A stretch of DNA of 62,668 bases, the filler included, from Dugesia japonica (taxonomy: Eukaryota): the NCBI GenBank assembly GCA_001938525.1. It is 6 parts of 6 records of this genome, joined end to end, with 100 filler letters (N's around TTAATTAATTAA, not from the genome) between each part and the next. Parts side by side here need not be neighbours in the genome. Positions count along the whole stretch, not along the records: positions 12,148 to 22,408 come from MQRL01620900.1; 5 more parts are not named here. One strand, written 5' to 3'. Of the stretch, positions 249 to 54,120 are shown piece by piece (position 1 is the first letter of the stretch; each line of letters starts with the position of its first letter). Position numbers and translations under genes: made by a program. Below the pieces are notes generated by a model. It searched no databases and was not told the origin of the DNA. It saw only the letters and a list, made by a program, of their open reading frames with translations.

Positions 249-3200
249 AAAATCCATTTCAAATGTTTTCAAGATAAATATTTTGAGAAGTTAATTAACC
301 GAAATAATTATTCAAAAGTTTTACAAGTAAGTTATCAATTTCTTAAAAAATATTAATAATACTACTTAATAGCAAAACGATGATAATCAAATCGAATCAA
401 ATATTTCTGAATCATCATCAACCAGTTCATTAATGAGTTTAAACACAAACATATTTGATAAAACGAATCAAAGTAAAATAATTGATGGTTTAACAAAATT
501 ACAATTGGAATTTTCTCATCAATCAAAAGAATTAAAATTGAAGAAAAAGCAATTAATTGAAAATTGGAATAATAGTAAAAAGAATTTTCTTAAGTTTTCT
601 TTACAGGAAACAATTAGTGAAATTGAAATTTATCAAAACAATTTGTTTTCTTTAGAAATGGATTTTAAAAATTTACAAATTAATAAAGAAACTGTTGATT
701 TAGCAAAACCAAATCATTATTCAAAATCTGCTAAAGAAATCAAATCGAATATTAAAAAGAATAAAGTATTATTGAAAAATCTTTGTGATTTACAAGAAAT
801 TGAAATAGATTTGAATAAATTAAATGAACAATTATTTAGTAATTTTAATGAAAAATATTTCAGAAATAAAATTCAAATTATTGATAAAAATATATTTAAT
901 ATGAAGTTGTCCGACGATATATCATTAAATCATAAAAAACAGATAATAAATTTAAGATTCTGTTCAGATCAATTGTTAGAATTTATATCGAACTTGTTTG
1001 TTGTATATAATAACAAGGAGTATTGGCGAAAATTGATTAAGATATTGAATTTAGAAGCATTCTCATTAGAAAAGTTATCAATTAAAGATTTGAATAATTT
1101 GTTAACAAAATCGAACTCAAATATTGAAGAAATAATTTTACAAATGAAAAATTATATGAATGGAGAAAATTTTCATAAACAACTATTAGATCAAGTAAAT
1201 TTTTTTATTTTTAAATTAATATTGAAATTGATATAGAATGAATGCAATAAATAAAGTTTAGCAAGTTTTAAGTAAAAATAATTACCAACTTGCTAATATT
1301 ATCTTGCAATCTGATTGGTTGCCTACAATATAATTGATATAATAAGGTGTTGCGTTAATTTTAAACCTTTTAAACAACTTTTAATATTTATTTTATGATA
1401 GGTGCAGTAAAATCAATCAAAATATTTTCTGTGGTTAAATCTGACTTTCTCCCATAAATCTGGCAATATGGCTATTCTGTGGTGGTAAAGTGATTTTTCT
1501 TTAGAATCAATCCATTTGCACACTCAATGTTGAACATCTTCGTACGTATTGAGGTGCATATCTGCAAGAGAATGTGCGATTGGTCTGAATAAATGAAAAT
1601 CGGTTGTAGCTATGTCTGTAGAGTACGCTAGATGTGGAAGGATTTCCCATTCTAAGTCTAACAGTGTTTGCTTGAAGATTAAAGAAAGATGTGGTCTAGT
1701 ATCATCATGCAAAAGAATGACTCTGCGTCGATTGCTGGCTATTTCAGGCCAATTTTGATGAATTCATCATTAACTTTTTTCAGTTGCTGTCGATATCGTT
1801 CCCCCGTAACTTTTTCCTTTGGTTTCAATAGTTCATGATACAATATACCTTCCATATTCCACCAGATACAAAACATAACTTTCCGATCATAAATATTGCG
1901 CTTTGCAATCGACGCTGACGCCTGTCCTGAATCAAGTATGATTTCTTTCGTTTAGAATTTTAGAAAAAAATTCATTTTTCATCGCTTATAATAATTCGTT
2001 ACAAAAAAAATTTCCTTCTCTATCTCGCAAGTAAAGATGTGACTATGAATCAGACTTAGTTAGATTCAAAATCTCACAACTCTCCATAAATTTTTATTTA
2101 TTATTACAAGTTTTTTGATTAAAGTCAAAAAAAGATGAAGAATAATTCAAACAAATATCTGATAAATTTTAATAAAATATGTTTAAAAAATACCGATTTT
2201 AATTTTAAAATACTTTTATTTTACATATATCTTTAATAGTTTTTAAACATAATTTCATAAAATAATCTTTATACTTTTAAAATTTTGCCTAATATAATAT
2301 ATAGATATAGGATATTCAAAATCTATGAATCATTCTTATTAGATGAGTTTTGAGTACTCATTGGATTATCAACATCAAAATTCTACTCCATAAAATTTAT
2401 TTCAAATAAAAACTATATCAAACAAATTAAAATCCCGTGTTTTAATTGGTGATCATTTTTTAAATTATTTAAAATTCATTTTAAATTATTTAAAAAAATT
2501 TACTGTATTCTTCAAAATGTTGTTTTCTCTTGTGAATCTTTATTTAACGGAACTTGAAAGTATACATGACTCAAATCAATAGCACTAAAAACTTTTTATA
2601 AGTATTAAATACATATCATTACAATAAGGCTACAACACAGCTGCAACAAAACTTCAACATAAATTCACACAAAATCACGTGCCTGCGAATTTTTAAAACT
2701 ACTCAAACCACTAAAATAGTAATAAATGCAATAGGGTTGCAACAGAGATGCAACCCAGCTGCAACACACATTTATACAACACGGATGTAACACAGATGCA
2801 ACACATGAGCAACATGCATCATCCAAAATCTCATGTCTAGTAATTTCTAATCTTAAAAAATTATTGGAAAAATATACTTGAAACTCATTTTTGCAACACA
2901 AAAGCTACATGCATGCAACATACAATCATAGTTACCTATGGCAACTTATAAACCGATTTCGATGGCCAACTCAAATTTACCATAGAAACCTAAAAATCAT
3001 CACCCAACACCCATTTTGTCATGATTTTCATTTTCAAATATGCACTTTTACACACACACGAAATATCACCTACAAAATACCAAATCTTTACACCATCACA
3101 TGTCATACGTCTTCCTCTTTCATTTAAACCTAAATTTCTTCAAATCCAACAAAAAATCGCAACACTTGACATTTTAAACTGAAAACCGATAACACGTCAT

Positions 3201-6200
3201 TGTAACCAACAGGAGCATTTTTGTAAATAGTTATCTTTGACACTATACAGATTTACAAACCCTATTGAAATATAACACATCAAAGCATAAAAAAAATTAA
3301 AAAAAATTAAAGAAAAGATAATAAAAATAAAAGATAAAGAAAGGATAAGAAAAAAAATTTTTGAAAAAATAAAGAAAATTTTAAATTTAACGCCAAAAAA
3401 TTTTAATCACATTAAATTTCTTAAATCCGTGATAACTAATAACTTAGACAGTTGATGTAATTGAACTATATCATTTTGAAGCACACCAAAAAATATTTGT
3501 AAATTTACCACCAAAATAAATTTTAAAATTAAAACAAAACTTGAATTCCCCGTAACAGCTTGAAGCACAACTCCCACCCCTTGTGGGGAATGGATAACTA
3601 TAGTAAGCTAGTGCGCTCACATCTACCTACTTTGTCTGAAATGAATCGAAATAAAAGTAATTAATTAGAACATTTGAAAGGTATTAAAATTAAATTCAAT
3701 ATAAAGAAATTAAAAAACTTCTGTAATTAACGAAAAACGTTATAAACTTGAAATAACACTGAAATTTAACAACTATTAATTTTTAAATTTCGTTTTTGTT
3801 TAAAGGTTTCTTAAATAATTTTTTGTTTAAAACGTTCTTGGAGTAAACATTCGGATAACCGATTACAAATAAAAAGACTTCTAAGGACCCTGGGTTTGGA
3901 AGATATAAGAATTCAAATAAGCTAGATTAGTGAGACGTAACCAATGGCGAATTTAAGGGTCTTATATGGCCCACAATGCCTAACAGTCGTAATAGTAGTT
4001 ACTAACAAAAAAGAAATTGTTGTTATTCCTTGCATAAAATAATTATATGTCAATAATATATTATTGTTATCATCGGTGTAAAATCTATTCAATTTTATTT
4101 TTACATATTTTAGATACAATCCAAATGGAATGGAAAAAAATACGTATTTTCTACATTACCAAATGACAATTTTCCAGTTATTTGTAATTATAATCAAATT
4201 TTTGACGACTGTATTGAATCAATTCAAGTTCTCAATACATCTCTCTCATCTAATTATACAACAGTTATTATTTTAATTATTTTTTTCTATTAAGCTTGAA
4301 ATAATGAATTTTATAACTTTTAGAATATCATTAAAGACATTTCAAAAATGAAAACTTTATTGCAAACAATTAATACCATAAATTCTCATTTAAGCATTTG
4401 TCAGAAGTTTGTTTTGAAATATAAAAACATTCTCAGAAATGAAAATAAGGAAATTCAAAATTATTTTCAAAACGAAAATGAAAAATTTGAGAAAATATAT
4501 CAATTTGTAAAGAATTTATTAGACTTATTGAAATATCATTCGAAAGTTATCGAATCTACTCAACATACGAAATCCATGGAGTTCTCATTTGAAACATTCA
4601 TGAATGATTTTGATTTCATATCTTGTTCAGTTCATCGATTTATTAATGAACAAAGAACTAATTTTGGAAGGTAAAAGTATCAAATTTTATTTTCGTTTTG
4701 AATATTTTGATTAATAATAATCTATAATTGAATGCGAATCGGACATTAAATGAATTCAAGAAGAAATGCATGTTAGAAAACTGTTTAATTACCATAATAT
4801 TTATTAATGAAAATCTAGAAAAGGAGGAATAAATATATATGTAATACATAGAAAGTTCGGTTCGTTTTCTTTTGTTGGCTTAATTTTTTTGTTTATTTTC
4901 TAGGATAAATACATCAATGAAATATATATTGAAAGAATAATAAGAATTCCCATCTTTGAATTTAAAATGATTATTTTAACAAAAATGTTCATTGTTCATA
5001 AAAATAAAATTTAATTTTATGTAAATTTGGGGCAAAAATGATTTTTTGTTCGTAATAACGAGTGTTAATATTGGATGGTGTTCATAAAAGATAAGATAGA
5101 CTGAATATCGATAAAAAACTTACTCAAAATATTGCGCAATTACACAAAATATTTTAAAATTGAAAAGAAATTATTAGCAAAAATTCAATAAGCGGATTCT
5201 GTATAGCTATTAAACATTAATTTCAAGTTTATGTTTTTAATTAATTTATGTATATGATTTAGTTTAAATAACCTTTTCCATTAAGATTTTATTTCGTCAA
5301 CGATGATGAATTATTAGAAATTTTAAGTTGTTCAATATCACCAAACAATATACAAAAGTACATCAGTAGAATTTTCCCATCAGTTAAATCAATCGAATAT
5401 CGATTAATATCTAATGGGTTTGCAATTGATTCCATTCAGTGCTTTAATGAAGAAAGATTAATTTTATTAAATTCTTTGATAGTTATGAAAAACTCTGATG
5501 TTTCTTTATTATTTACGAACTTACAAAATTCAATTCATGACTCATTATCAAATAATTTAAATAATAATTTGAATCCTTTTATGCAAACCGGATTTAAAAT
5601 TTTCCAATCTGAAACTATATTGAATACAATTGATAAAATATTTTCTCAAAATTTGCTTCTAATTGAGCAGTTGCTATGGACGAAACTGGTTGAATCATCA
5701 ATTATTACGGGCACTTTAAATGATTTTCTATCGGATCTCAGTGGAACTCTTTCTAATTTATTAGAATTTTTGGCAATTTGTTCAAAGGATTTTCAATTAA
5801 AAAATAAAATACTTTTATTGATAAATGAAATCTTTCATCAAAAATCAATTGTTGAAAATCTTATCAATTGTAATGTATCATGTATCATAGATTCAATTTG
5901 GATTAACAATTTACGATTTTATATTAATAATGGTTTAATTTATGTAAAGATTGGACTTTCTACTTTGGAATATGGAACAGAAATTTACGGGTTATCAATG
6001 AATGATTTTTTAGTGAGAACCCCAGTTGTTAATAACTGTTTTTTATTCATTACTGATGCTTTGAGATTGAGTTTTGGTTCGCTTTTATTTGGCCCAGCAG
6101 GTACTGGTAAAACAGAAAATATTAAACAATTAGCAAAATATCTTGGAAAATTAATACTTCTCTTTAATTGTGGGGATACTTTTACGAAAGAAGTAAACTA

Positions 6201-7445
6201 AATATCTGTAAGTTTTATGTTAGAAACCGTTTTTCAGTCATTTAAAAGAATAATGAGTGGAGTTTCAAAAATAGGAGCTTGGGTATGTTTCGATGAATTC
6301 AATAGGTTATCTCCATCCGACATGAACGATGCACTAAATTTGATGGATAAAATTCAATCGAAGCTTCAGTTAGTTAATCAATGCGTATTGCCTAATTTTG
6401 TAGAACATTTAGTTGACGAAGACGTTAGTCTTTATAAAATATTTTTTTGCTAATAATTGAACAGTAAATTACAAATTTTGATTGAACCATTAATATGTTT
6501 TCGTTTGGAATTTCAAACACTAGAAGCAGGGCCGAATTTTAAGAAGAGTAGACCGGGCAACCGCCCGGGACGCCAAAATCTATCTGTNAAATGAAAAAAT
6601 CAAAACTCTGTTGAAACAATTGTTTTTTTCAATTTCACAGATCTCTAATATGAGGTATTTGTGTCCTCAAAAAACCAAATTTCTTTTTTCCATTTTTCGG
6701 TGGATATTAGCATTTTACGATATGAGTTGATGAAACATTCTTATCTTACTTTTTAATTTTCCATCTATCCATAAATTTTCATCCAAATTTTTAGTCATCA
6801 GGTGGTTTCATGCCTTTTGTGTCGAATTAGAGAATTTATCGATACAAGTACTCTAGGTGACGTATAGGTAGTTTTCAAATTTAGGAAAATTGGTAAAATT
6901 TTCGAACCAATATCGTTCAAAATGGCGGTGTTTTTAGATTTAAATCTATAATGACGTTTTAAAGACGTGCCTTACAAAACTTATAAATGCAGATCATTGC
7001 GCGGCTTCTCAGTGCACATCTAATGATACCTAATTTGATTTGATCCAATAAGAATTATGCACAATACAATGAAAAAACTGTACAATTTTTAAAATTGATT
7101 ACGTAATTCATTTTTAGAATGCTTTTTTAATGGGAAAGGAATTATTTTACTTTTAAATTCTCTATCAAATTATGCACCTTGAATAAACAAAAAAAACAAA
7201 TTTTCGAGGACTTTGAAAAGAAATCGAAAGAAAAATTGGCTGGAAAAAAGTTTTACCGACGGGAGGTGGTTGATTTCATGCTGACATGTCTCACTAAGAT
7301 AAATTACGAGTAATCAAACCTATAACATTATAAATAGGAAATTATGAACAAGGTGAGTGAAGAGAACGAAGTAGATCTACAATGTCCAGTAGCAATAAAA
7401 ATTAAAACAAGTTTTTACACATTTATTTCAGAGAAGATGCTGCCT

Positions 7446-7483
<38 letters not shown>

Positions 7484-10400
7484 TAGAGTTTTTAACAATA
7501 AGAGAAAATGTTTTTTTGTAAAATCGTGCATTTCTCAAAATTGGTGATTTTCATTGTCGTACTCTCCTCTCTTACAGATTATACAAGAAATGTTATTTGT
7601 TTACTAAATTTGCTTTTCATAGGTATCACTCCTATAAAAAGTTACACTTACGACGCTTAAACGACACCCCAATCTCTATCTACAAATCCACTTTAATAGA
7701 CACTGATAAATATACACTTGATTCTAGTATAACGCGGTTTCAGTATAATGCAAATTGCAAATTGCACTAAAACTTCGTGTATTTTTTGTTTAACGCAATT
7801 TTTTCTAATTTTATAGGTTTGTAGTCGCTAATTTTGTAATTTGGATATTTCCTATGCGTGCATTAACTGTGCTTTTATTTCATATTGTATGAGTAAACAA
7901 ATTCATACATTATAATATTATAATTACACAGAATATTAATTTTATCATGTTGTTTAGCTCTCGGTTCATTGTGAAACTTGTATTGTTCTAACAATGAATA
8001 AAAATTATAAAGGTCGAACAGATCTACCGGAAAAAATAAATGATTTATTCAGATCTTTCTCAATAACTTCACCTGATACAGATTTAATAACAAAAGCTTT
8101 GATAAATTTCCAAGTAAAATAATTTTCTTAATTATTCGTGAAAATATTTTCTAAAAGGGTTTTCAAAATATTGAAATTTTAACAATGAAAATTCTGCACT
8201 TCTTTAAATTTTGTGAAAATCAAATCATTACGAAAAGTCATTATGATTTCGGATTGAGAACTATAAAGCGTATAATCGAAGATGCTGGCAACATATTTAG
8301 AAAAAATGAAAATGAAGTAAATAACATTAAATAACATTTTATGTCGTGTTTTATTAATAATTATGTCTGAAAAATTATTCTTATTTGTAAAAGAATAAAA
8401 ATATTTAAAATTTCTTATTAAATTTTAGTAAATTGTAAATATTTATTATATTATTGATTTATTATTATATATCCATGTAAAAAAATGAGAAACCTTCATA
8501 TATCAGTCGTTTTATTCAAAACATTACTGACACTCATTCTAAGTTGGGTACACCCGATCTCGTTCGATCTCGGAAGTTAAGCCTACCTAGGCCTCGTTAG
8601 TAGTTATAACGAGAGCTGTGTCAACTGAGCCTGGCTAGTGTTTGATTAGTGATAACCTTACCCATTTCCAGTGCAAGAAGGAGTCCACCACTTCGTATTC
8701 GATGTGTATCAAGTTCAGGTGTTTTTGGTTAAGTCCTTTCAAATTCTCCTATAATTTTCTGCCTTAGAAGAGTTTCATCATTCGATCGTCAAAGGGGCAC
8801 TCAAAATCAGCTGATAGATTCCAATTTCTGCTAGTTGATATCATTATGAGATCCCATGTACGGTGCCCATTTAACGGGGTCTTTAGTCTGAAAGTTGCTT
8901 TTGTCGCGGTGTATCAATACTTGTAGTTCATTTATAACGTGAACAGCGTCGACTGACCTGGCTGGTGTTTAGTTGGAGATAACCTTACGCATTTCCAGAG
9001 CAAACAGGAGTCCACCACTTCGTGTTTGATTGTGTGCGTGTTCCTGTGTTTTCGGTTAGTTCCTTTCAAATTATCTTATAATTATCTGTCTTTAAAGAGT
9101 TTTCATCATTAGATCGTCAAAAGGATACTCAAAATAAGCTAGCAGATTCTAAATTCTTGCTAGTTGATATTCTGGTAATAATCGATCTACGGTGCCCAGC
9201 AATGGGGTCTAAAAAGGGCTTCGTTTATCGCGGCATATTAATACGTGTAGTTCCCTTTAGCTTCACATATTTGCATTACATTCTATATTTCCTCAGCACC
9301 TGGACAAATGATTAAATTTGGAATAGAATCTGTTTTAATAGTTATTGAAAATTTCGATTTATTTCTATTGCTCCATAAAACTGTATTATGTTGCTCAAGA
9401 AACACTATTGTTGTGAATNTTGGTCTGAGTTAATCTCCATTTTCTTTTATAATTATAACTTTACCTATATCTAACTTATTTAAAATCAAGATGGTCAGAT
9501 TTTAATAAATTTTACAAAACCTCTGAATTAATAAATTGAATTATTGTAAAGTAAAATTTGCCCATCTTCCCCATTAATTTTGCCATTGAAGTTAATGTCG
9601 TTTTCACAAACTTGTAATTTTTTTTATTATTTCTACTCATTTAGGCAAACTAAATGCAATATTTATAATATAATCCTTTGTCGTCGTTCTACTGTTTTGT
9701 TTATTAGGTTTCGAAAATGGAAATTCGTAATTTAGAGGAGGCTTCTAGAAATTTTTAATAATAGGATATTTTGTTTCAATATCAATGTTGATGATTTAGT
9801 AAAAAAATACTGATATCGAATAAATCTTCATAGACAGATGATGCATACGAAAATCCTAATGATTCATTTTGTTCTACATTTGAAGCACTTGCAATAGACA
9901 CTTTTGATTCTGTTACAATATTTATGGCTGTATTACTTTCACTATTTTCATGGCTTTCTTCAACGTTTTTTTCGTTTGAAATACCTATCTAATGATTGTT
10001 ATTTAAATATATAATACTATTATCACCCCGTCGCGCTTCTTTAAATCTGAGCTCTGGTCTAGTGTATTATAAAGTTAAAGTTAAAGAGAGTATTATTTGG
10101 TATTCGGGAACATTGTTTGCTTTTCCAAAGTTTTGTGAATTCGTTACATTCTAATATTAAGTTTACTGTAAAGGGAAAAGGAATGGTATTCTGTCCTTGT
10201 TTTTGATATTTTCATTGAATGGAAATCATCACATCATAAGACTGAAATCTACAAAAAGAAAAGTGATATTGGCTTGTATGTTATCCCAAATAGTTTTTGT
10301 GATCCTGCTTAACAAAAGAAAATGGTAATGGGTTTAGTGTTTCGTTCATGGTCATTGTTATCAACTTATTCAAAATCCATTAAAAGTATTGAGCATTTAT

Positions 10401-11375
10401 TAAAGTTACTGCAAGCAAATGGATATAGTAAAATATTTTTAAATTCATTGACTTCACAGACAATTGATAAAATATTGGTTGGTAATAATATTGATTTCAA
10501 TAAAAAGGTTGAAACTATTTTGAATAATTCTGAACCTGATAACATTTTGTTAAACTTTATTGGACCATTTATTTTATCAATTGCTTATTATGAAGGTGGT
10601 AAAAAGTATAAGTGCTCGATTCTAAAAGCTGTTAAGGATCTATTTTTATTGAAAATTGTTTCTACATCGCACAAAATTGTTAATAGCTTTGTTAATAAAT
10701 CCCATACACTGATTGGTCTGTGTCCTAAAATTACAATACATATTTTAAATTTATTAAATATTATTATTAGAAAATTTGAAAATTTTTTTTTAAATTTTCA
10801 AATTTGTATCGAAGATTTAATTTCCCATAATTTTCTCAATTCAATCATTTTCAAAAAATATATTCTTAAATATTTACATTTTGATGCTGAAATAATAAAT
10901 TGATAATATTCCTATGATAGAATACCAATATCAATGAAGAAGCGTGTGTTGTGTCTTCTATGAAAATTAATATTTTACCCAGACTTGAAATTAAAGATTT
11001 GATATTGACAAAGGAAGTAATCGAAGAAATCTTTCATTCGACTAAAGAATCTCTTGATTTCATAAAAGAGGATATTTTTCAAAACAATCTTTTCAAATCT
11101 TTTTCAAATCTTGGTAAATATTTTGTGGAAAAGTTACACCAATTACATAATCTAATGGAATTTCATCAATCGATTATAATCTATGGAGAAACTGGTAGTG
11201 GAAAAAGTTTAATTTGGAAAAATTTGCTGGATGCTTATAAAATCATTTATCCGGAATTCTCATTTAACAAATTTCATTTAAATCCGACAGTAATTGATAA
11301 TAAATCTTTATTTGGATACATCAATGAATCAACAAACAAGTGGATTGATGGACTTATACCAAGTTTGTTCCGCAA
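249..11375 (+). CDS. Divergent dynein heavy chain (cytoplasmic dynein-1-like), partial, multi-exon. Exons approx. 249(or ATG 189)-326, 373-1194, 4114-4263, 4324-4670, 5286-6192, 6238-6423, 7958-8113, 8158-8316, 10921-11375
   Basis: GT-AG joins keep one open frame. Motifs: RFYFVNDDELLEILS, AAA1 Walker A GPAGTGKTE, FNCGDTF, GAWVCFDEFNRL, TMNKNYKGRTDLPEK, HYDFGLR, AAA2 GETGSGKS, WIDGLIPSLFRK. Cut off by the contig end. Confidence 0.92.
1345..2040 (-). mobile_element. Decayed mariner (DD34D) transposase relic in dynein intron
   Basis: Minus-strand translation across frameshifts: IISDEK..KVMFCIWW..GILYHELLKP..ILLHDDTRPH..WEILPHLAYSTDIATTDFHLFR, matching the mariner HDNARPH and YSPDLAPSDY motifs. 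Confidence 0.9.
2050..3631. mobile_element. Probable Maverick/Polinton terminal-inverted-repeat relic in dynein intron
   Basis: Ends GTGCGCTCACATCTACCTACT at 3631, resembling the termini at 34014 and 59909. Internal GCAACAC-type tandem repeats at 2620-2960. Left boundary uncertain. Confidence 0.5.
6526..6600 (+). mobile_element. hAT-type MITE 5' end
   Basis: CAGGGCCGAATTTTAAG...GGGCAACCGCCCGGGACGCC is a typical hAT non-autonomous terminus. Confidence 0.45.
7449..7480. repeat. (AT)n microsatellite
   Basis: Seen directly. Confidence 0.95.
8527..9255 (+). mobile_element. 5S rRNA-derived element (SINE3-like or 5S pseudogene) followed by a ~325-bp tandem dimer
   Basis: TACACCCGATCTCGTTCGATCTCGGAAGTTAAGC..GGCCTCGTTAGTA matches the eukaryotic 5S 5' half and A box. 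Units 8600-8922 and 8923-9246 align along their length. Confidence 0.75.
10080..10720 (+). mobile_element. Penelope-like retroelement reverse transcriptase C-terminal fragment in dynein intron
   Basis: NIKFTV..NGILS(F)DI..TEIYKKKSDIGLY..GLVFRSWSLLS..LLQANGYSKIFLN matches the PLE consensus IKFT.E.E..LPFLD..VYRKPT..L..RA..ICS..L..NGYP. Confidence 0.8.
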
Positions 11376-11493
11376 GTACAATTCAATCTATTTTATTTCA
11401 AATTTACTGTTATTTTGTAATTGATACCATTTAAATTGAATCGAATTATAATTAAATAAAAAAAACTTTCCATAAAGTTTCTATTTAAAAATA

Positions 11494-15724: not shown

Positions 15725-16779
15725 TGTTGGGGTGAAACACCAGATTAATAAAGAAAATAAAGACCAGGGGCTCAAAGTCTAACAATAATGAAGAAAGAGG
15801 TAGAAAAGAAACCTAATCAAGAAAGATAGTTACAGTGGAAAGCGTACGAGTATCAACAAAAGAAGGGAAAGAAAAAGCAAGTACGAATAATCACTATGGC
15901 TAAAATATGAAGAAAATAATTAATAAAAGAGCGAAAGAAGATAGACGTGAAGATCTCGAGTGAACAAAGTTAACCCACATCAGTGTTAATAATTAAAAGA
16001 AATTATGGATTTAATAATAAAAATCCAGAAAATTTCTTTTGAAGAACTATTAATTATCCGAAAAATTAATTAATTTTGGAAATAAAATAAATCTAAATTA
16101 GATAAAAATTAGTTTTTATGAATATCTCTGCTCAGAATAATCACAGAGACTCGTAGAAAGAAAAAGATCTGGGGCAATAGGATTTTGCCATTAGAAAACC
16201 ATAACACCATCAGGAGAACCCGCACAGGGATTGGAAGATTGGGCCAATAAGGGTCACAAAAATAAAATAAAGATTGGAAAATCACATGGTGATTTAAAAA
16301 TAGCTCCCAATAAGAATTCTAAAACTCTATAAAAAATTTGGAATTTAGCACAAAAACCAATGGAAAGTAAGAAATATGAACTAAAAATAGAAAACCAATG
16401 ACAATGATGCGGAGTTGCATCGGAAAATGGTATTTAAACTCCACCTAAATCAGAAGAAAGAAACAAAACAATTTCAATTTTATCTATAAGCAAGTAAAAA
16501 GAAATTTTTTATCACTTTTCAAGTATTGAGGGATTTATTGTTAACTACTGAATTAATTTTGCAGTAAGGAAAGATGGTGACATTAATCGCAAATTAATCC
16601 AAAAAGTTGAAGTAAATTTGTCAACGTTTGTTCTCAAATTAATTTGGTATTGTCGAAAGGAAATCAGAATCGGTAGCGAAATTCACTAATCCTCGTCAAA
16701 CAGTATTTGTCTATATTCATTCCTTGCAGAGATCACACTAACTTACTAGTAAGTAAAGTGTTTGTGATTTTTCTTGTGT
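15725..16779 (+). mobile_element. Probable 5' part (U3/R) of a long LTR
   Basis: Starts TGTTGGGGT, the inverse of the ACCCCAACA end of the repeat at 22073. Purine-rich stretch, CCAAT boxes at 16244, 16307, 16357 and 16395, TATTTAAA at 16431. Ends at a gap. Confidence 0.5.
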
Positions 16780-17955
16780 NNNNNNNNNNNNNNNNNNNNN
16801 NNNNNNNNNNNNNNNNNNNNNNNNNNNNNNNNNAATCCTGTTTATTAGGTATTTTATAGGACAATTATAGTAACTAGACGAAAAGAAAATATCGTTCTCA
16901 TAAATGGACATATCAACTCTGATCCACACGTTTCTGATCTTTCTTGCAGCCGATACACCGTTTGGATAACAATTCACATATAATTTTATTATCGTGAATA
17001 AACTAATGCGGTTATTTAGCAGTTATCAGTGAAAACTTCATAAAAAATTCAAACCTGCTTGGGTGTGTCCCAGTAGTCATNNNNNNNNNNNNNNNNNNNN
17101 NNNNNNNNNNNNNNNNNNNNNNNNNNNNNNTATATTACTCGAACATAGACAGCAATTTATCTATTTTTATTTTGCATGTTGAATTGGTTGCTGACATTAG
17201 TTGCAAAGTCAAATTTTGTCAGATAACCATGTGTTTAGAACATTGCTTATCAAAATTACATACCATGCTTCTCGTCTCAGTACTGGTGTGTATTTAAGTT
17301 TGTTAGTGTTAATGTGTATCAATACCAGTGTTAAGTGATAAAAAATTTAGAGTTGATAACAAAGCAACCAATTTGGGCGGTCATTTAAAACTGAAAAATT
17401 TTCGGTATAATAATTAAATCCGAATAAATTATTAAACCGGCATTTCCCCTATTATTATCACATATCTGGGGCATTATCTAATGTTCTTAAATAAAGAGGA
17501 ATGATTAGGATTAATAAGTTTAATAAATCAAACGACTCGGGTAGCAATAATAATAGGATTATCATAACGATTCATTACAAACTTTTGCATTTTTTATTTT
17601 ATTTTATAATTATTAATAACGTATTATTATTACTACTACTGGATTCATCTTTATGCCCATATAAAACGCATTATGTTAAGTGGATATATACCAGCATGAT
17701 AATTGATATTATTTCCATTAGAATTCTTATAATAATGAATCCTGTTAATATTCTAATAAACCTCCTTACGATTACTTTCCGTCGATGTTATCTAGAAAAG
17801 TCCGGGTACGAGTAATGGTAATTGCTAATTATCGTTATTATAAACAGTAATTCTATGCCAGTCATATTTTGAGCATTGACCTAAAGGTAATCAAATCTGG
17901 GAAATTCACATCGTACTGATTAGTGTTAATGTGCCTAAAGTTGAATATTTAGATT

Positions 17956-18138
17956 ATGCCAACCGAACTAAGAAATATGCTCAGATTGATTCGGAAGCAA
18001 CATATGACTGCTCGATTGAGGCAATTACTGGCCCACATTTTGTCACACGGTGAGATCGAGTATCCCGACGAAACCGACCTCCGGTGTTTCGTCGAGATGT
18101 TCTCCTTACCTTTAAAGGTGGACATCGACGAGGAGTGA
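17956..18138 (+). CDS. Small hypothetical protein (cassette 1)
   Basis: GC-richer 60-aa ORF preceded by a TTTAG acceptor (17952) and followed by AATAAA (18189). Confidence 0.45.
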   Translation: MPTELRNMLRLIRKQHMTARLRQLLAHILSHGEIEYPDETDLRCFVEMFSLPLKVDIDEE

Positions 18139-18290
18139 CGATCTTTCCTTAAAATATATTTTGTTTATTATTAGTCCTATTTGTTTAAAATAAAAAAAGT
18201 TTTTTCTTCAAAGTTATCTAGTCTTATTTGTTCTATGTAACTAATTCATACCAATTAATTTGGCTCATAAATTAATTTTAAATAATAGAA

Positions 18291-18560
18291 ATGGATTATA
18301 AATGGGAGCTGATACAAGATCGTATTACCGGTAGGATAATATTTAAGAGATATCGAAATCCCTATAACCGGAATGCCGAAGTAATGGTAAACAGGTCAAA
18401 TCTACCCGCCAGAGCTACCTATGAGGAACGGATGATGGACGCTACTGACCGTCAGGCGTATTATCAGTGGATTGGCCCCAATCGTAGTCGCATCACTCTT
18501 TCAGCGAGAATAATGTCTACGAATTACGTAAACGGAATGCNAGTTTACGAACGAGTTTGA
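18291..18560 (+). CDS. Small hypothetical protein (cassette 2)
   Basis: 89-aa ORF, AATAG acceptor at 18288, AATAAA at 18744. Confidence 0.45.
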   Translation: MDYKWELIQDRITGRIIFKRYRNPYNRNAEVMVNRSNLPARATYEERMMDATDRQAYYQWIGPNRSRITLSARIMSTNYVNGMXVYERV

Positions 18561-18896
18561 GAGAGAACAGCCCGCTCCCTTTAACACCAGTCATGACTCC
18601 TGTAGGGATAGGTGGGTTGATAAATGACACCTTATGGGGTGTTCGCAATGCATTTAGTAGCGGCAACGATGAGAATGTCAACCTCTGTCCTATCAACGAA
18701 ACCTCTGTATAAACTGCTATTTATAAGAATTTGTGTATGAAAAAATAAAATTTAGAAAACGAATTCCTGCATATCTTAGTGTTTTATTTGTCATAAAATT
18801 AACCGAGCATATTTCGTGGCCTTTCGTAATAATTAATGATTAATCAGTCTTAAATTTTTTAACTGTTGTTTGAACATATAATTTACATTTTTTTAG

Positions 18897-19237
18897 TGCA
18901 TTTTTCGTTAAACCGTGCCGTAGCTCCCACCAAGAAATTGAGAGAATCAAGCGATGGTGCGGAAATAACATGGGACCTATATAAGCTTGCAAAGCGACGT
19001 TGGGAGGCTGATACTTCTTCAGCGGAGGCCAAGGTATAGCGGTAAAAGGCCAAATGTGTCGCATTTATAAAAGAGGCTGAAAGAGTATGGAAGACCCAGA
19101 TAGAGTCCTTCACCGAAGTCATTCGGTCCTACTAAGACCGAGAAAATAAACTGGTCAATGATATTCTAAAGCTAAAAGCGGCGATGCCGCTCGAACCTCG
19201 GATGGTCGACAAAGCCACCCAGACATCGTGTTCGTGA
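18897..19237 (+). pseudogene. Small coiled-coil-like hypothetical protein with three in-frame stops (cassette 3)
   Basis: TTTTAG|TG CAT.. frame reads HFSLNRAVAPTKKLRESSDGAEITWDLYKLAKRRWEAD..AEAKV*R*KAKC..RSY*DRENKLVNDILKLKAAMPLEPRMVDKATQTSCS*. Each stop is one C>T from Gln. AATAAA at 19266. Confidence 0.5.
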
Positions 19238-19348
19238 ATTTCGCTGTTCTTACTCCGAATTTGTAAATAAAAGTTTTGATTGGTTCATTTTTTTATAATT
19301 AGTCTTGAATCAGAATGAAGTCACATTTTATTAACATTATTTATTTAG

Positions 19349-19710
19349 TGCCACGAATTATATTCCCTAACAGTTTAAGGCGCTGCCACAGAATAATCCA
19401 GCGACTTCTGTTGAAGCGTCATCTCAAACAACAGACTAAACATGCCTTACTCAAACATCTCGCGCGGCGAAATAAACTAATAAAAAAGCTAGACATCATC
19501 GTGAAAAAACAAGGTGANCTTGCAGANNAAACCAAGAGGATTCTGCAAAACAAAATTGAATTCTTACAGCACTATATNGCTGATTTGTCGAGGCAACTAG
19601 GAAACGCAGCATGGCTTCATTGGGATGACAACGACGATGAAGCTGCCTTCAAATTTTTAGATGACAATCCCATCTAGTGGTTAGACCTGGGTGCTATGGA
19701 TCTCCTGTAA
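19349..19710 (+). CDS. Small basic hypothetical protein with acidic tail (cassette 4)
   Basis: TTTAG|TG CCA CGA.. open frame to 19677, extendable past one TAG to 19710. K/R-rich helix then WDDNDDEAAF. Confidence 0.45.
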
Positions 19711-20779
19711 TATAACATAAAATATAACTTAGTTTTTATAACTTGTTAATTAGTTTTGATTATAATATCATAAGGGAAAATAAGGAACCCGAATTAAAGG
19801 TGTACGAGTGTGTACCTCAAATAAGCGTTGGAGTATCTAACAAAGGGACGTTAGATTCGAATCCTTGAAGGGGATCCCCTGAGGGCCGTTTTTCCCCCGC
19901 CAGCGTTTCTTTGCACCATCAACTCAGGTGGAACACCAACAATATTTTCGAAATTGTTTTGATTCTCCTGAGCCGCAAAATTATCCACAACGAGTCCCAT
20001 GTGGATAGTGGGCGGCGGATATGCCACCAGTGCAAATTGCACGGTGCAATACATGTTAATAATTTTCTTCGTCAATACTTAAACAGGATTTAATTAATTT
20101 ACAGCTTAATCAATTAATTAAATTCACAATTCGTAAATTTATAGTTACCTTTAGCTTTAAGTAATTTTTATTGGTAATTTTAATATAATATAAGTTGATA
20201 TTTCGTAAAAAGACAATAGTTTAAAATGTGAATATCTATAAAACAACAATTTAATTTAATTGAAGCTATTATTTTATTTTAATGAAATAAGTTATATCAT
20301 TAATAACAGNNNNNNNNNNNNNNNNNNNNNNNNNNNNNNNNNNNNNNNNNNNNNNNNNGAATATTCAAAGTCGTATAACTTTTGAAAAGATTCATAAAAT
20401 TTAATTATTTTATCTTAGCCGTTTTGGATTTTACATTTCCATGTTCAGTTTGGCATTGTAATTAATAACTGGATATTACTATATCATAACTGGACATGTA
20501 TAGGAAGGTTAACAGTGATAAGGTTAAGAATAGGTGAATACGTATTTTAAGAAATGTAAAGATAGTTTTTAATTCTGAGCCAAATGATGACAAAATATTA
20601 TCATTATTTTATCATTATATGCAACTATTATCATTATAATATACTTTTTTCAAGGAAATATTTTTCGCTATATTTTTTAGACAATGTATAGGTAACTTTT
20701 TATTCTGAGTTGAGTGGTAACAATTTCATCATAACAATCGATTTAATGAAAAATATATTGATTTATAATGTTGACATTC

Positions 20780-21950
20780 ATCGGGGAGGAAATAAATAAA
20801 TTTAATTAATTCGCTTTTAATAAAATTTTTAATGATTTGATTTATGGTTTTCATGAATTTTAAGGATTCGTGGGGATTTTGTGAATTTTCAGAGATGTAT
20901 GGGATTTTCGGCAATTTTTAGTAGTTTTTNNNNNNNNNNNNNNNNNNNNNNNNNNNNNNNNNNNNNNNNNNNNNNNNNNNNNNNNNNNNNNNNNNNNNNN
21001 NAATTTTAAGGGACTTATTGGGATTTTTCGGGGATTTTAGGGATTCCTTGAGATTTCATGATTTTTGTGGGATTTTTTGTAGTTTTCTAAGGGTTTTTAA
21101 TGGTATTGTGTATGAGTTTTATATGAGGATATAAAACATTTGACTTGTTTGAGAGGTTTTATACGAGTTTTATGAACTTTTTTGAATATTTCATAAATTG
21201 TTTAGCGATTCATGAAGCTATTTTGAATTTTAAGGGATATATGAGGATTTATGGATATAATTTATTGGGTTTTTATCAGTTTTATATATGATGTTATCAC
21301 GGATTTTGCTTGTTTTGACGTTTTATGAGAATTTTAAGAACTTTATTGAATATTTCATGAATTTTTATGGATTTATGGATTTTCATAAATTTGAAAGGAT
21401 TTATGAGGTTTGTCATGAATTTTATTGGATGTATTATGGTTTATTGCGATTTTTCATGATTTTTTTTATTTCATCAAATTTTAGGATTCTTATAAATTTC
21501 ATGAATTTATTGGAATTATTGTGGTTTAAAAAGAGTTTTATAATGGTATTTTATGAGTTTTATATAGTGGCTTTTTACTAGTTTTAAGGACTTTGTCAAA
21601 TATTTCATAGATGTTTAGGATTTTGTAAATTTTAATGGGTTTATGCGGTTTTTCTTTAGGTTTTTCTGAAATTAAATGAAATTATGAGGCTTTTCATGTA
21701 TTTTTAGGAGTTTTAAGGGGTTTTTAAGGAAATTTTATAAATTTAATATGATTTTATAATAGGCTTTAAGTGGTTGAATAATGCTAATATAGAGGTTGTA
21801 AAGACTTTATTTAATATTTCTGAAATTTTTAAAAATTTATTTGTTTTTTCATGAGTTTTTAGGGATACATGAGGTTTGCATTAATTTTAAGGAATTTATG
21901 GCTGTTTTCGTGAATTTTAAAAGGTTTATGAGATATTTATAAAATATTCA
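20780..21950. repeat. Degenerate strand-skewed minisatellite (TTTTATGAG / TTTTAAGGGA / TTTCATGAA motifs)
   Basis: Recurrent short T/G-rich motifs. Confidence 0.7.
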
Positions 21951-22072
21951 GAAAGACTATCTATATGATGCTTAAATTTGTTTTACTTAGTATTTTTTCT
22001 TAGTACTTTCACATGACTTTATGTTATTATTAATGGTTTTATTATTAATATTCTTTAAGTTTTTAATAATTA

Positions 22073-22408
22073 TGTTGGGGTTTTACCCTTTATAGGTTGA
22101 TGATTTATGTGAATAAATTTAGGGGGGTCGAACTTTATATAAAATTAAGTCTAGGGTCATTGATTTGGTAAAACCCCGCGATGAATTTTAATCTGGTGTC
22201 CCCCGAAAATCCAGATCTTCGGAATGAAGCCGTTGACTCGTAGCTCGAGTACAGACTCNCATTCCTTTAGTTCGGGTTCGTTTACATGATACTCGCTTAA
22301 TTTTCTAATCAAAATTAGCTTTTACAATTATCCCTTAATAATTTTCCGTTACTCTATAATTGATTATAATCTTAATAGCTATTTAACAATTCCGAAAAAC
22401 AAAAGAAT
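22073..22408 (-). repeat. Interspersed structured repeat, probable LTR 3' end (copy 1)
   Basis: Reverse complement aligns closely with 53723-54060. Ends GGGTAAAACCCCAACA. Confidence 0.8.
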
Positions 22409-22508
22409 NNNNNNNNNNNNNNNNNNNNNNNNNNNNNNNNNNNNNNNNNNNNTTAATTAATTAANNNNNNNNNNNNNNNNNNNNNNNNNNNNNNNNNNNN
22501 NNNNNNNN
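22409..22508. other. Artificial contig linker
   Basis: N44-TTAATTAATTAA-N44. Confidence 0.97.
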
Positions 22509-22959: not shown

Positions 22960-23300
22960 GATTGTGTTGAAAGTGTTTGAATACTTCACTTTCTTTCTGT
23001 TTGAAATGTTCCTTAATTGCTGTTTGGATGATTCTACATGTTTCTCCTATATTGATGTATCTTTACAAATGGTACAAGTTATTTTATAAGTGATATTTTT
23101 CATATTGCGTGTTGCATTTCTACCATTACAAATGCATTTTGGGACCACAAAGGTTTTGTATTGGTTTCTGAAATTGGATACCCAAAGGTGTTTGCGTTTT
23201 GAATATTATTCTTGGATCGTGCTTGATTTTCAATTGTTTATTATATTTTGCATGATTTCGCTACATTTCTCATTAATAAGAAATCATTTAATTCGTATGT
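22960..23300 (-). mobile_element. Penelope-like GIY-YIG endonuclease fragment
   Basis: Minus strand CGPK.CIC..ITYKITCTICK..IGETCR..IKEH..SEVFKH. Homologous to 37865-38165. Confidence 0.85.
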
Positions 23301-23463
23301 TTGTTATTTTTTGGATTTTATTATATTTTGTATTCGAAAATAAATATTTAGAAAGAAATCAATTCCATTTCTAAATTTGAAGATAATCTCTCAGCTCTAA
23401 TTCTTTCACCCTTGACTATTACAATTTTCTGTTTGATGGTAGTATTACTACTCCAGGATAAAA

Positions 23464-23855: not shown

Positions 23856-24714
23856 TATATGTCAATTGTGAAATGGTTTCATATATGATTGGCTAGTTAA
23901 TATTTCACCAGGTTTCTTTGGCATTAAGGTGTTCAGAAAATGAATCTGAAAGTCAATTGATTTCTCTAAGTGAATTTAATGCTATCATTAATACTATTGG
24001 CTAATTCCAAAATATTCTCTAAAGGAGAACTAGTAACAAAGAAAATATCGTCAATGCNNNNNNNNNNNNNNNNNNNNNNNNNNNNNNNNNNNNNNNNNNN
24101 NNNNNNNATACAAGAAGCAAACCAACTAATAATCAAAGACAAGGTAGAACAAGAAGAGAAAAATTTTATAGATTCAGACTGTTTCAAATGATACGAGATA
24201 AAGAAAAAGTCAAGCTGTTTCGATCAAATAAGATGTTAACATATGCAAATGGCTCACCGATTAAGGTAATTGAAGATTCTTTAATAAATGTAACTNNNNG
24301 AAATAAAACTAATAGAATTAGGATGACTATTGTAGATAAATTGTTCTCAAAAGTCATAATAGGAATAAGAGATATGAAAAAGATGAACATCTCGATTTTA
24401 CAAAACTAGACTGTGTGACTGTAGATGAAATAAAAGTACCTTTCATATCCAAAATATGAGAGCTAAGAGAAAACTAAAGAGCACTGTATCCGGGGGTCCA
24501 AATAATAGTGCGAGAAGTGTGAATGGGGCTCAAATGTGTACAGTAAAAGTTATATTAGACAATACAGTTAAAATTTTGAGAAAAGAGGAAGTAACTGTTT
24601 TAGCTAGTGTATATAGCAATATTTCTTGTTTGAAGGAAGTTTTATTTAGTCCTTATAAAGATAAGTTAGCAAATATAGGGGTTGTTAGAGAAACTCGTAA
24701 AAAAATTAATACTA

Positions 24715-25115
24715 CTCATTGCAAGACAAACTTTTTGTTTGAAATAATTTTTGGTGATCTCTGGAATATCTGTATGTTCTTTGTATCTTTCAAAGAAATC
24801 ACTCACAATATCAATGGCATATTCAGGTCCTTCAATTGGAATTGATCCAAATATAGATTTGTTATATCTATTGAACCAAATTCATCATCACTCTTCCTGT
24901 TATAATTCTTAATTCGTTCGATAAACTCGTAACTATTATTTAAATGAATGAAACTTAATAGTGATTTTAATATTATACATAATGAGAAATGTAGCCAAAT
25001 CATGCCAAATTTAATAAAAAATCGAGATAATAATATTCACAACGCAAGCACATTTGGGTATCCAATTACAGAAACCACGACAAAACCATTGTGGTCCCAA
25101 ATGCATTTGTGATGT
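24715..25115. mobile_element. Penelope-like fragments inserted in the Gypsy element (RT piece on -, linker/EN piece on +)
   Basis: Minus DDEFGSIDITNLY (PLE RT SFDVTSLY motif). Plus 24980-25110 is homologous to 37865-38010. Confidence 0.7.
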
Positions 25116-25117
25116 TA

Positions 25118-25285
25118 GCCATGGCGTAGCTAGGGTATGTGTCGCCTGGCGCAATTCTTAAAATTCCCGTCACCCCATATATTTTTTAAGACTAAATTGG
25201 ACCTTCCTAAAATACTATAACTTAGCTGAGTAATTAATTTACCAAAAAGGAGACTCTAGGCCAAAAAAGGTTTNGAACCACTGAT
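25118..25285. mobile_element. hAT-like MITE ends
   Basis: CCATGGCGTAGCTAGGG..GTCGCCTGGCGC 5' end and AAAGGTTTNGAACCACTG 3' end. They may belong to two elements. Confidence 0.45.
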
Positions 25286-49961: not shown

Positions 49962-50411
49962 TTAATAATCATGAATCAAACTTTTTAAATCTTTTATTAT
50001 TTCCTCAACTAATTACTAATAATAAAATGTTTTGATACCAAATAATACAATCTTTCCACTTGAAAAGACTTTAACATATATTGGATCATATTTTGTAAGT
50101 CTTAAGCCTGGAAATAATTCGGGTTCATACATACACTTGATTTTTCTTGCTAAATCACTTATATTAACAGATTGTTTTAAATTGATTACAATTGTTAGCG
50201 ACTGTAATTGAATATCTTTGATATCGTATTGTAATTCCTTTGGTTTTATTGGTTTTTTATATCCCATTACTCTACAGTTTCCGGTTTGGAAGAATACGAT
50301 CGTATACTTGCCAGTTTTCTCCACAACTTGAGCTCGTTTTCGTATTGAAAATTTCATTTTGTTGACGACTTCTTGATCCACTTTCCCTTTGTAATTTATA
50401 TTTGCAATCAT
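49962..50411 (-). pseudogene. Miniature intronless TATA-binding protein (TBP) homologue within Maverick, with two nonsense codons before the last helix
   Basis: Repeat 1 IANINYKG..TIVFFQTGNCRVMG. Repeat 2 DIQLQSLT..MYEPELFPGLRL..VKVFSSGKIVLFG. The frame continues past TAG TAA as LVEEIIKDLKSLIHDY*. Confidence 0.88.
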
Positions 50412-50443
50412 TATTAATGACTAATAGATTTTCAAAAAGGATA

Positions 50444-53271: not shown

Positions 53272-54060
53272 ATAAGGGTTTGAAGGTTGACCAATAGTTT
53301 CGAAGTCCAAAAATAACCGCCAATGAAAAGAAAGCATGTGACCGTTTGGCCAATAAAAGTGTCGAAAATTTATATTCACCAATGGAATAAACGGGGGTGT
53401 AGAAAAAACCGGTATAAATACCGATGAAAATTTCACAAAACTTAACACTTTTAACCAGAAAAATATTGAGTTAATCGGAAAAATTTTACTTTCACAAAGG
53501 TAATTATTTTTCATCAATTCATGATATGGCGATTTCCGACTCGAGAAGAAACGGCAATGGTGGGCTCCTCAAATCGTTAATTTCAACAAAAAATCTGCAA
53601 TCAAAATGTTGAGCTTGCTCCAAATCGGGATCCAGGCTACGTTACTTTTGTTAATTATGTTAACCATTAAATTATTGTGTCTCAAGTGAAATTTTAAATC
53701 ATAATATATTTTTCACTTACAAATTCTTTTTGTTTTTCAGAATTGTTAAATATCTATTACGATTATAATCAATTATAGAGTAACGGAAACTTATTAGCGG
53801 ATAATAGTAAAGGCAAATTGTGATTAGGAATTAAGCGAGTATCATGTGAAACGAACCCGAATCGAAGGAGTGCGAGTCTGTACTCGGATTACGAGTCAAC
53901 GGCTTCATTCCGAAGATCTGGATTTTTTGGGGACACCAGATTCAAATTCATCGCGGGGTTTTACCAGGTTAATTACCCTAGACTACATTTCATATAAAAT
54001 TCGACCCCCCTAGATTTAAGGCATACAAGAATTCAACCCATCAAGGGTAAAACCGCAACA
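53272..54060 (+). mobile_element. Probable long LTR (promoter, intron, structured 3' end; copy 2)
   Basis: CCAAT at 53291, 53320, 53350 and 53379. TATAAATA at 53413. AAG|GTAATT donor at ~53500 and TTTTCAG acceptor at 53740. The 3' 340 bp is shared with 22073-22408 and ends ..CAACA. Confidence 0.6.
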
Positions 54061-54120
54061 GAATAATTATTAACAAAATTAATTTAAGTAGAATATGGCG
54101 AGAAAATTAGTAGGTAATAC

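What the first reader, a model, noticed from the sequence alone, without database searches (positions are those of the whole stretch)
17700..20100. Tandem array of small acceptor-ORF-polyA cassettes
Four GC-richer orphan ORFs on + each start right after an AT-rich splice-acceptor AG (17952, 18288, 18896, 19348). The first three are followed by AATAAA (18189, 18744, 19266), with only ~80-150 nt to the next acceptor and no promoter-like sequence between. This looks like a virus-style alternatively spliced and polyadenylated unit, or an operon-like trans-spliced unit. It lies between LTR-like sequences, so it may be the accessory region of a giant retroelement or an unknown endogenous virus. I recognise none of the proteins.
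Basis: partly seen in the sequence, partly recalled or inferred. Interest (0 to 1): 0.7.

Follow-up and report, generated by a model that had tools for sequence, protein, structure and literature searches.

The report
Mini-gene array inside flatworm transposon repeat
A decayed piece of a flatworm jumping gene, probably one long terminal repeat, carries four small unknown protein genes in a row, each apparently with its own splice entry and most with their own poly(A) signal, an unusual virus-like layout whose use still has to be shown in RNA.

Summary
The layout is real: four 42-47% GC blocks separated by 15-23% GC spacers in a flatworm genome. Three blocks start at or near an AG, and all end at or near a stop codon. 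The signals are weaker than claimed: AATAAA occurs in 54% of AT-rich 140-mers, and only two acceptors are strong. Three of the four ORFs are broken. The array is not between two LTRs. It lies inside a 4.2-kb unit (15725-19941) bounded by TGTTGG...CCAACA, whose right end is homologous to the end of a dispersed repeat: probably one long solo LTR. All four AGs are phase 1 to the frame that ends at the block border, and ORFs 3 and 4 begin AG|TG with no ATG. Flatworm spliced leaders end in AUG and would put three ORFs out of frame, so trans-splicing is unlikely. Cis-splicing from a shared leader ending in A fits. A published planarian GLT2 transposon probe shows the same spacer-AG|TG-open-frame anatomy (read by eye). 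No protein homologues were found. Splicing, polyadenylation and other genomic copies remain untested.

The parts
15725..15733 (+). Left terminus of the 4217-bp unit (TGTTGG...), preceded by ACAT
   Evidence: Motif TGTTGSKGT has 4 matches in the window against 1.0 expected, 2 of 100 shuffles reach 4 (motif defined after seeing the sites); flanks
16746..16754 (+). Candidate splice donor GTAAGT preceded by A; one of several GT sites preceded by A upstream of the array
   Evidence: inference only: GTAAGT occurs 10 times on + in the window
17761..17950 (+). Intermediate-GC stretch joined to block 1 by the HMM; possible leader exon or further decayed cassette
   Evidence: short frames; unexplained
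17951..18152 (+). Cassette 1: AG (17951-52); intact 60-codon ORF from its own ATG (17956-18138); overlapping phase-1 frame with one internal stop that ends at the block border (18150-52)
   Evidence: codon-position bias P 0.03 for the ATG frame; no homologue
18189..18225 (+). AATAAA and YAGTSTT motif 30 nt further on
18287..18712 (+). Cassette 2: AG, ATG at 18291, 89 open codons, then a frameshift; a second frame runs to the stop at the block border (18710-12)
   Evidence: stop depletion P 0.007 for the first 90 codons
18744..18783 (+). AATAAA and YAGTSTT motif 33 nt further on
18895..19237 (+). Cassette 3: T-rich AG followed by TG; 112-codon phase-1 frame with internal stops at 19037, 19043, 19133; coiled-coil-like by eye, with a K-x-T-Q-T word near the end
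   Evidence: no homologue; LC8-binding resemblance is recalled, untested
19266..19306 (+). AATAAA and YAGTSTT motif 34 nt further on
19347..19710 (+). Cassette 4: T-rich AG followed by TG; phase-1 frame open for 108 codons, one stop at 19675, terminal TAA at 19708-10; followed by AATATA (19709, 19721), not AATAAA
   Evidence: stop depletion P 0.012, codon bias P 0.011; all-helical model, pLDDT 65; no homologue
19740..19941 (+). Right end of the unit, colinear with the end of dispersed repeat R (53723-54082 +, 22055-22408 -) up to ...CAACA, followed by ATAT
   Evidence: (1 of 500 and 0 of 500 shuffles reach the score; nhmmer E 0.0016 for the core)
19942..20047 (.). GC-rich sequence continuing past the proposed end; unexplained

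Best explanation
The array is the coding part of one decayed, long (4.2 kb) LTR-type unit of a planarian Gypsy-like retroelement, built like the GLT2 repeat. Each cassette is an alternative last exon. A transcript starting upstream uses one shared donor whose exon ends in A and splices to one of the four acceptors. The join A+TG makes the start codon of ORFs 3 and 4, while ORFs 1 and 2 have their own ATG within 4 nt of the AG. Use of an acceptor activates the poly(A) signal about 30 nt after that cassette's stop, whereas unspliced RNA reads through. One promoter thus yields four small accessory proteins (60-140 aa). Shown: block layout, phases, broken frames, homology of the right end, terminal motifs. 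Inferred: LTR identity (about 0.6), transposon-borne once-coding array (about 0.8), splicing and poly(A) use (about 0.5), planarian host (flatworm hits rank highest among named invertebrate hits).
For: Block ends coincide with stops and block starts 2-4 with AGs in a composition-only HMM. All four AGs are phase 1 to the frame that ends at the block border; open codons after AG 2-4 are 89, 46, 108 in phase 1 against 7, 4, 9 in phase 0. Stop-to-AATAAA distances are 36, 31, 28 nt. YAGTSTT follows only these 3 of 446 AATAAA sites (fair permutation P 63/1500). It is strand-specifically enriched in the unit: 8 of 21 + sites, 0 of 18 - sites; P 0.007 without the three defining sites. The right end is homologous to repeat R up to CAACA, the left end carries the same motif inverted, and the flanks are ACAT/ATAT. 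The GLT2 probe in the supplement of PMC8532177 (first 400 of 485 nt, read by eye on the opposite strand) shows a GC block, a ~100-nt AT spacer, a T-rich AG followed by TG and about 78 stop-free codons in phase 1. The GLT probe shows an AT spacer, an ATG and a stop-free GC-rich frame. Host context: flatworm-like MRCK exon, decayed Gypsy and Polinton-like copies.
Against: No junction, poly(A) or copy evidence was obtained. AATAAA alone is at chance level, and acceptors 1 and 2 are ordinary AGs. Blocks 1 and 3 show no stop depletion (P 0.36, 0.33). The ATG frame of cassette 1 is phase 0, not phase 1. No shared donor can be singled out. The flank match is 3 of 4 bases, and GC-rich sequence continues 106 nt past the proposed end. 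The two R copies share AT-rich sequence beyond CAACA, and no primer-binding site or polypurine tract was found. Spacer 3 also fits an ordinary 86-nt phase-1 intron (GTAAAT at 19263). The GLT2 spacer shows no canonical AATAAA in the part seen. One GLT2 and one GLT primer do not match the window at 3 mismatches, and homology to GLT2 was not computed. No protein homologue in any search.
Confidence: 0.5

Rival explanations
1. Same transposon unit, but the spacers are ordinary introns or the ORFs are read from unspliced or separately started RNAs; AATAAA is incidental.
For: Spacer 3 has a good phase-1 donor (19263) that matches acceptor 4. AATAAA is common. ORF4 has an in-frame ATG 33 nt upstream of its AG. 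The GLT2 probe spans a spacer unspliced (template unknown).
Against: Spacers 1 and 2 have no good donor in the right phase ahead of the in-frame stop. All four blocks end at or near stops. Stop-AATAAA-YAGTSTT spacing is uniform.
Confidence: 0.17
2. Operon-like unit resolved by spliced-leader trans-splicing at each AG.
For: The host is a flatworm. Flatworm operons have short spacers, peaking near 100 bp in Macrostomum (PMC8629364, passages) and set at <=300 bp in parasites (PMC12582326, passages). A leader AUG would be in frame with ORF1 (61 codons).
Against: All reported flatworm leaders end in ATG; joined at acceptors 2-4 this gives 7, 4 and 9 codons. Operon genes are mostly conserved genes; these are orphans in a repeat.
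Confidence: 0.1
3. Not an LTR: a fragment of an unknown endogenous virus or of a DNA transposon with short TGT...ACA ends that carries the cassettes.
For: Inverted terminal motif and near 4-bp flank match; no primer-binding site, polypurine tract, gag or pol tied to the unit.
Against: The inverted match is only 6-8 bp. There is no transposase or viral hallmark, and no hit in viral contigs, PHROGs or BFVD. Conservation of one end between related families and short repeated motifs fit an LTR.
Confidence: 0.12
4. The GC blocks are non-coding regulatory blocks or debris; frames, AGs and AATAAA are chance.
For: Three of four ORFs are broken; two blocks lack stop depletion; no homologues; signals are individually weak.
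Against: Block borders match stops and AGs; ORF4 and the first part of ORF2 are significantly open; pooled codon-position bias P 0.009; GLT2 shows the same anatomy with an open frame (by eye).
Confidence: 0.1

Closest known systems
Schmidtea mediterranea transposons GLT2 and GLT (probes in the supplement of PMC8532177; the paper calls GLT2 a neuronally enriched transposon de-repressed by smedwi-2 RNAi; their filing as Gypsy-type repeats in Repbase is recalled, from no call)
   Same: GC-rich open frames separated by ~100-nt AT-rich spacers; in GLT2 a T-rich AG followed by TG opens a phase-1, coiled-coil-like frame as in cassettes 3 and 4 (by eye)
   Different: One primer of each does not match the window; sequence homology not computed; only ~400 nt of each probe was seen; no canonical AATAAA in the GLT2 spacer seen
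Burro/GYPSM1 giant Gypsy elements of planarians (PMC6431247, section 7 read)
   Same: Same host group; >30 kb with an internal region up to 25 kb, so LTRs of several kb; accessory ORFs are described
   Different: The described accessory domains lie in or just before the polyprotein; no LTR-borne cassette array is mentioned; no Burro domain found here
Retroviral ORFs in or next to U3 (MMTV sag, HIV nef, foamy virus bel) and Drosophila gypsy env with a splice-made start codon (all recalled; one search found no paper on the last)
   Same: Small accessory gene in or near the LTR, reached by splicing; start codon made at the junction
   Different: One or two ORFs sharing the LTR poly(A) site, not four tandem last exons with separate poly(A) signals
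Flatworm SL trans-spliced operons (PMC8629364, PMC12582326; passages read)
   Same: Same-strand genes about 100 nt apart; T-rich YAG acceptors
   Different: Leader AUG would be out of frame for three of four ORFs; operon genes are mostly conserved host genes

Membership tests
Solo LTR of a Ty3/Gypsy element | TG...CA termini with short inverted repeat | tested here: met
   TGTTGG at 15725, CCAACA at 19936-41; right end fixed by homology to repeat R, left end by the motif alone
Solo LTR of a Ty3/Gypsy element | 4-5 bp target-site duplication | tested here: inconclusive
   ACAT versus ATAT, 3 of 4 bases, in AT-rich DNA
Solo LTR of a Ty3/Gypsy element | Other copies paired around gag-pol with primer-binding site and polypurine tract | not testable with these tools
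   No genome held; both R copies lie next to assembly gaps
GLT2 / GLT | Sequence identity to the family | tested here: inconclusive
   One primer each, 0 matches at 3 mismatches: not these parts of these families at high identity; full comparison not run
GLT2 / GLT | AT spacer, AG|TG or ATG, GC-rich open frame | tested here: met
   By eye on probe cells; this is my description, not a published definition
Burro | Giant polyprotein with Gag, BIR, MATH, env, RT, integrase | tested here: not met
   No such domain or long ORF in or next to the unit; expected to be absent from a solo LTR
SL trans-spliced operon | Leader AUG in frame, or own AUG not disturbed | tested here: not met
   7, 4, 9 codons at acceptors 2-4; met only at acceptor 1
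SL trans-spliced operon | Leader-tagged reads at the acceptors | not tested
   No reads were laid on the stretch
Alternative last-exon unit | Junction reads from one donor and poly(A) ends after each cassette | not tested
   No reads were laid on the stretch

The most novel reading that the evidence does not exclude
Long LTRs of planarian Gypsy-like elements (GLT, GLT2 and this family) are themselves compact multi-gene units: four or more unrelated microprotein genes read as alternative last exons, with start codons made by splicing and separate poly(A) sites. Every solo LTR would then be a small, PIWI-controlled, tissue-specific accessory-gene cluster.
Probability: 0.35. Interest if true: 0.75.

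Novelty: new variant of a known kind. Interest (0 to 1): 0.52.

Why it matters
LTRs are normally non-coding or carry one accessory ORF (recalled). An LTR that encodes several orphan proteins through alternative splicing and polyadenylation would be a complex-virus strategy in a retrotransposon. Planarian transposons such as GLT2 switch on in specific tissues when SMEDWI-2 is lost (PMC8532177, section 7 and passages). Their RNA might therefore make small proteins that contribute to the differentiation defects, which existing knockdown RNA-seq could test. This particular copy is decayed and probably makes at most ORF1.

Tried and rejected
Protein searches found nothing: ORF3 (0 hits among 1.84 billion representatives), ORF4 (viral contigs; metagenomes), ORF2 (one pattern-driven match, 0 loci returned), Pfam (ORF2 none, ORF4 one weak IMD hit at E 0.012 below cut-off), PHROGs (0 of 8 pieces), ESM Atlas (phage-tail leads with a recognition score below the threshold, rejected; none). 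Searches covered only near-length proteins. Folds without alignments: ORF2 pLDDT 46, not searched further; ORF4 pLDDT 65, no match at E<=0.001 in BFVD or PDB. Rfam: 0 matches in 17650-22500. Sequencing runs: 24 listed, 7 hold part of the stretch (shares 0.17-0.45, three studies, one organism); no RNA holder listed; none was laid, so this says nothing on expression or copy number. ORF1/ORF4 paralogy: 9 of 29 identical, E 0.026, shuffle P 0.006 but best of 28 pairs, not accepted. tblastx of the array against the rest of the window: nothing below E 0.4. A ciliate-type code was rejected because blocks 1, 2 and 4 end in TAA at the composition border. A rhabdovirus-like gene-end reading was dropped because the blocks are far too short (recalled sizes). 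Earlier findings by place, sequence and the first word set were empty. Paper searches found no description of such an array (two were on poly(A) and trans-splicing). Grohme 2018 is not held, Repbase was not available, and one scanned supplement of PMC11410931 could not be searched; any of these may describe it.
Full report
Setting. The window is about 25% GC. It holds dynein heavy-chain and kinase exons, a decayed Gypsy element at about 24-28.6 kb and a decayed Polinton-like element at about 49-59 kb (the Polinton label is my reading of integrase, ATPase-like and polymerase-like pieces). The kinase exon matches one unnamed protein at 99% and flatworm MRCK proteins at 70-73% over the exon, ahead of molluscs and annelids at 65-70%. 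The host is therefore a flatworm; a planarian such as Schmidtea is my inference. No whole genome is held.

Observation. The AGs and AATAAAs are where stated. The blocks are 46, 44, 47 and 42% GC and the spacers 17, 23, 20 and 15%; 6 of the window's 16 runs of at least 40% GC lie in 17951-20090. A two-state HMM that sees only composition gives GC-rich segments 17761-18148, 18304-18707, 18913-19257, 19348-19707 and 19784-20047. Three starts lie 16, 17 and 0 nt from the stated AG, and four ends lie within 2, 3, 20 and 1 nt of a stop. The first AG is not at a border. The signals are individually weak: 378 of 699 AT-rich 140-mers contain AATAAA, and 2 of 4 acceptors pass a filter that 12% of 4892 AGs pass. 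The spacing is more telling. The distance from stop to AATAAA is 36, 31 and 28 nt (50 nt if cassette 1 uses its ATG frame), and a YAGTSTT word follows 30-34 nt after each AATAAA and after none of the other 443 in the window. Because I defined that word from these sites, I ran a permutation on random AATAAA triples: 63 of 1500 reach the score, which is modest support.

The ORFs are decayed. ORF1 is intact from its own ATG (60 codons). ORF2 runs 89 codons, then a second frame continues to the border. ORF3 has stops at 19037, 19043 and 19133, ORF4 at 19675. Stop depletion is significant for ORF4 (P 0.012) and the first 90 codons of ORF2 (P 0.007, window chosen after inspection), not for blocks 1 and 3 (0.36, 0.33). 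Codon-position bias is P 0.011 for ORF4, 0.032 for ORF1, 0.054 for ORF3 and 0.15 for ORF2; the two host dynein controls gave below 0.001 and 0.063. No search found a homologue. ORF4 models as all-helical. ORF3 looks coiled-coil by eye and ends near a K-x-T-Q-T word like the LC8 dynein light-chain motif (recalled, untested).

Phase. All four AGs are phase 1 to the frame that ends at the block border. After acceptors 2-4 the open run is 89, 46 and 108 codons in phase 1 against 7, 4 and 9 in phase 0. ORFs 3 and 4 begin AG|TG, and their first downstream ATGs open only 4 and 12 codons. Flatworm spliced leaders end in ATG (PMC12582326, passages), so trans-splicing would miss three of the four frames, although the spacer lengths resemble flatworm operons (PMC8629364, passages). 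An upstream exon ending in A would create the ATG of ORFs 3 and 4 and leave the ATGs of ORFs 1 and 2 as first starts. A GTAAGT donor preceded by A lies at 16749, but many GT sites there follow an A, so no donor is identified. Spacer 3 also fits an ordinary phase-1 intron; spacers 1 and 2 do not.

What contains the array. No direct repeats flank it. Instead 19740-19941 is colinear with the end of a dispersed repeat present at 53723-54082 and 22055-22408, up to CAACA (1 and 0 of 500 dinucleotide shuffles reach the scores; nhmmer E 0.0016). The same terminal motif occurs at only one more place, inverted, at 15725. The 4217-bp segment thus reads TGTTGG...CCAACA with flanks ACAT and ATAT. Within it YAGTSTT is enriched on the + strand (8 of 21 sites, 0 of 18 on -), and an unbiased scan ranks GTACGAGT (3 copies inside, none outside) and AGTGTTAA first among 8-mers. 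This fits a long solo LTR. Against it: the flank match is imperfect, GC-rich sequence continues to 20047, the two repeat copies share sequence past CAACA, and no primer-binding site or polypurine tract was seen.

Outside evidence. The supplement table of PMC8532177 lists probes for S. mediterranea transposons; about 400 nt of each cell is held. Read by eye on the opposite strand, the GLT2 probe shows a GC-rich block, a spacer of about 100 AT-rich bases, a T-rich AG followed by TG, and about 78 stop-free codons in phase 1. That is the anatomy of cassettes 3 and 4 in an apparently undecayed repeat. The GLT probe shows a spacer, an ATG and an open GC-rich frame. The paper reports GLT2 as neuronally enriched after smedwi-2 RNAi and says Gypsy-related LTR elements are most prone to activation (passages; section 7). 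It does not classify GLT2 in what I read. One primer from each family does not match the window, so this is at most a related family; homology was not computed. Burro elements exceed 30 kb with internal regions up to 25 kb (PMC6431247, section 7), so LTRs of several kb exist in this host group. Planarian poly(A) sites use AAUAAA in about 41% of cases and AAUAUA as a variant (PMC5068929, passages); the latter follows ORF4. PMC11410931 (passages; supplements) and PMC10954484 (one passage and primer rows) add nothing on structure; PMC8797187 and PMC10187017 were irrelevant.

Mechanism and odds. Most likely the unit is a long LTR whose cassettes are alternative last exons: one leader, four acceptors, a poly(A) site used when the acceptor before it is used, and read-through for unspliced RNA (0.5). 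Rivals are ordinary introns or unspliced use (0.17), a non-LTR element or virus fragment (0.12), trans-splicing (0.1) and chance (0.1). Splicing and polyadenylation are inferred; no reads were laid on the stretch (one search lists runs only).

Novelty. Single accessory ORFs in LTRs and splice-made start codons are known (recalled), and three earlier findings of this scan report single ORFs in solo LTRs of other genomes (unchecked AI notes). Eight paper searches found no account of a multi-cassette array in an LTR, but Grohme 2018 and Repbase were not available. Verdict: a real, decayed, transposon-borne array, a new variant of a known kind if confirmed; interest 0.52.

Noticed in passing
window 50016-50420 (-): TBP-like ORF (Pfam PF00352, E 5e-13) inside the decayed Polinton-like element, next to ATPase-like and integrase ORFs.
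   Followed up: partly
window 8540-9253: A 5S-rRNA-like head (by eye, recalled likeness) followed by two 327-bp units 77% alike; possibly a 5S-derived SINE.
   Followed up: no
window 53272-54060 and 22055-22408: Repeat R: two copies 86% alike, both next to assembly gaps; the longer one also alternates GC-rich and AT-rich blocks with a strong acceptor near 53741, possibly a sister family with cassettes.
   Followed up: partly
window 373-11424 (+): Very divergent dynein heavy-chain gene with long exons (Pfam AAA_6, DHC_N2).
   Followed up: no
window 24023-28600 (+): Decayed Gypsy element with RT, RNase H and integrase zinc-finger remnants; no link to the array found.
   Followed up: partly
window 19728-20093 (+): A frame with one internal stop runs across the proposed right end of the unit; no codon bias (P 0.11); unexplained.
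   Followed up: partly
window 22962-23347, 24980-25118, 37786-38165: Copies of a repeat with a GIY-YIG remnant, Penelope-like by my reading.
   Followed up: no
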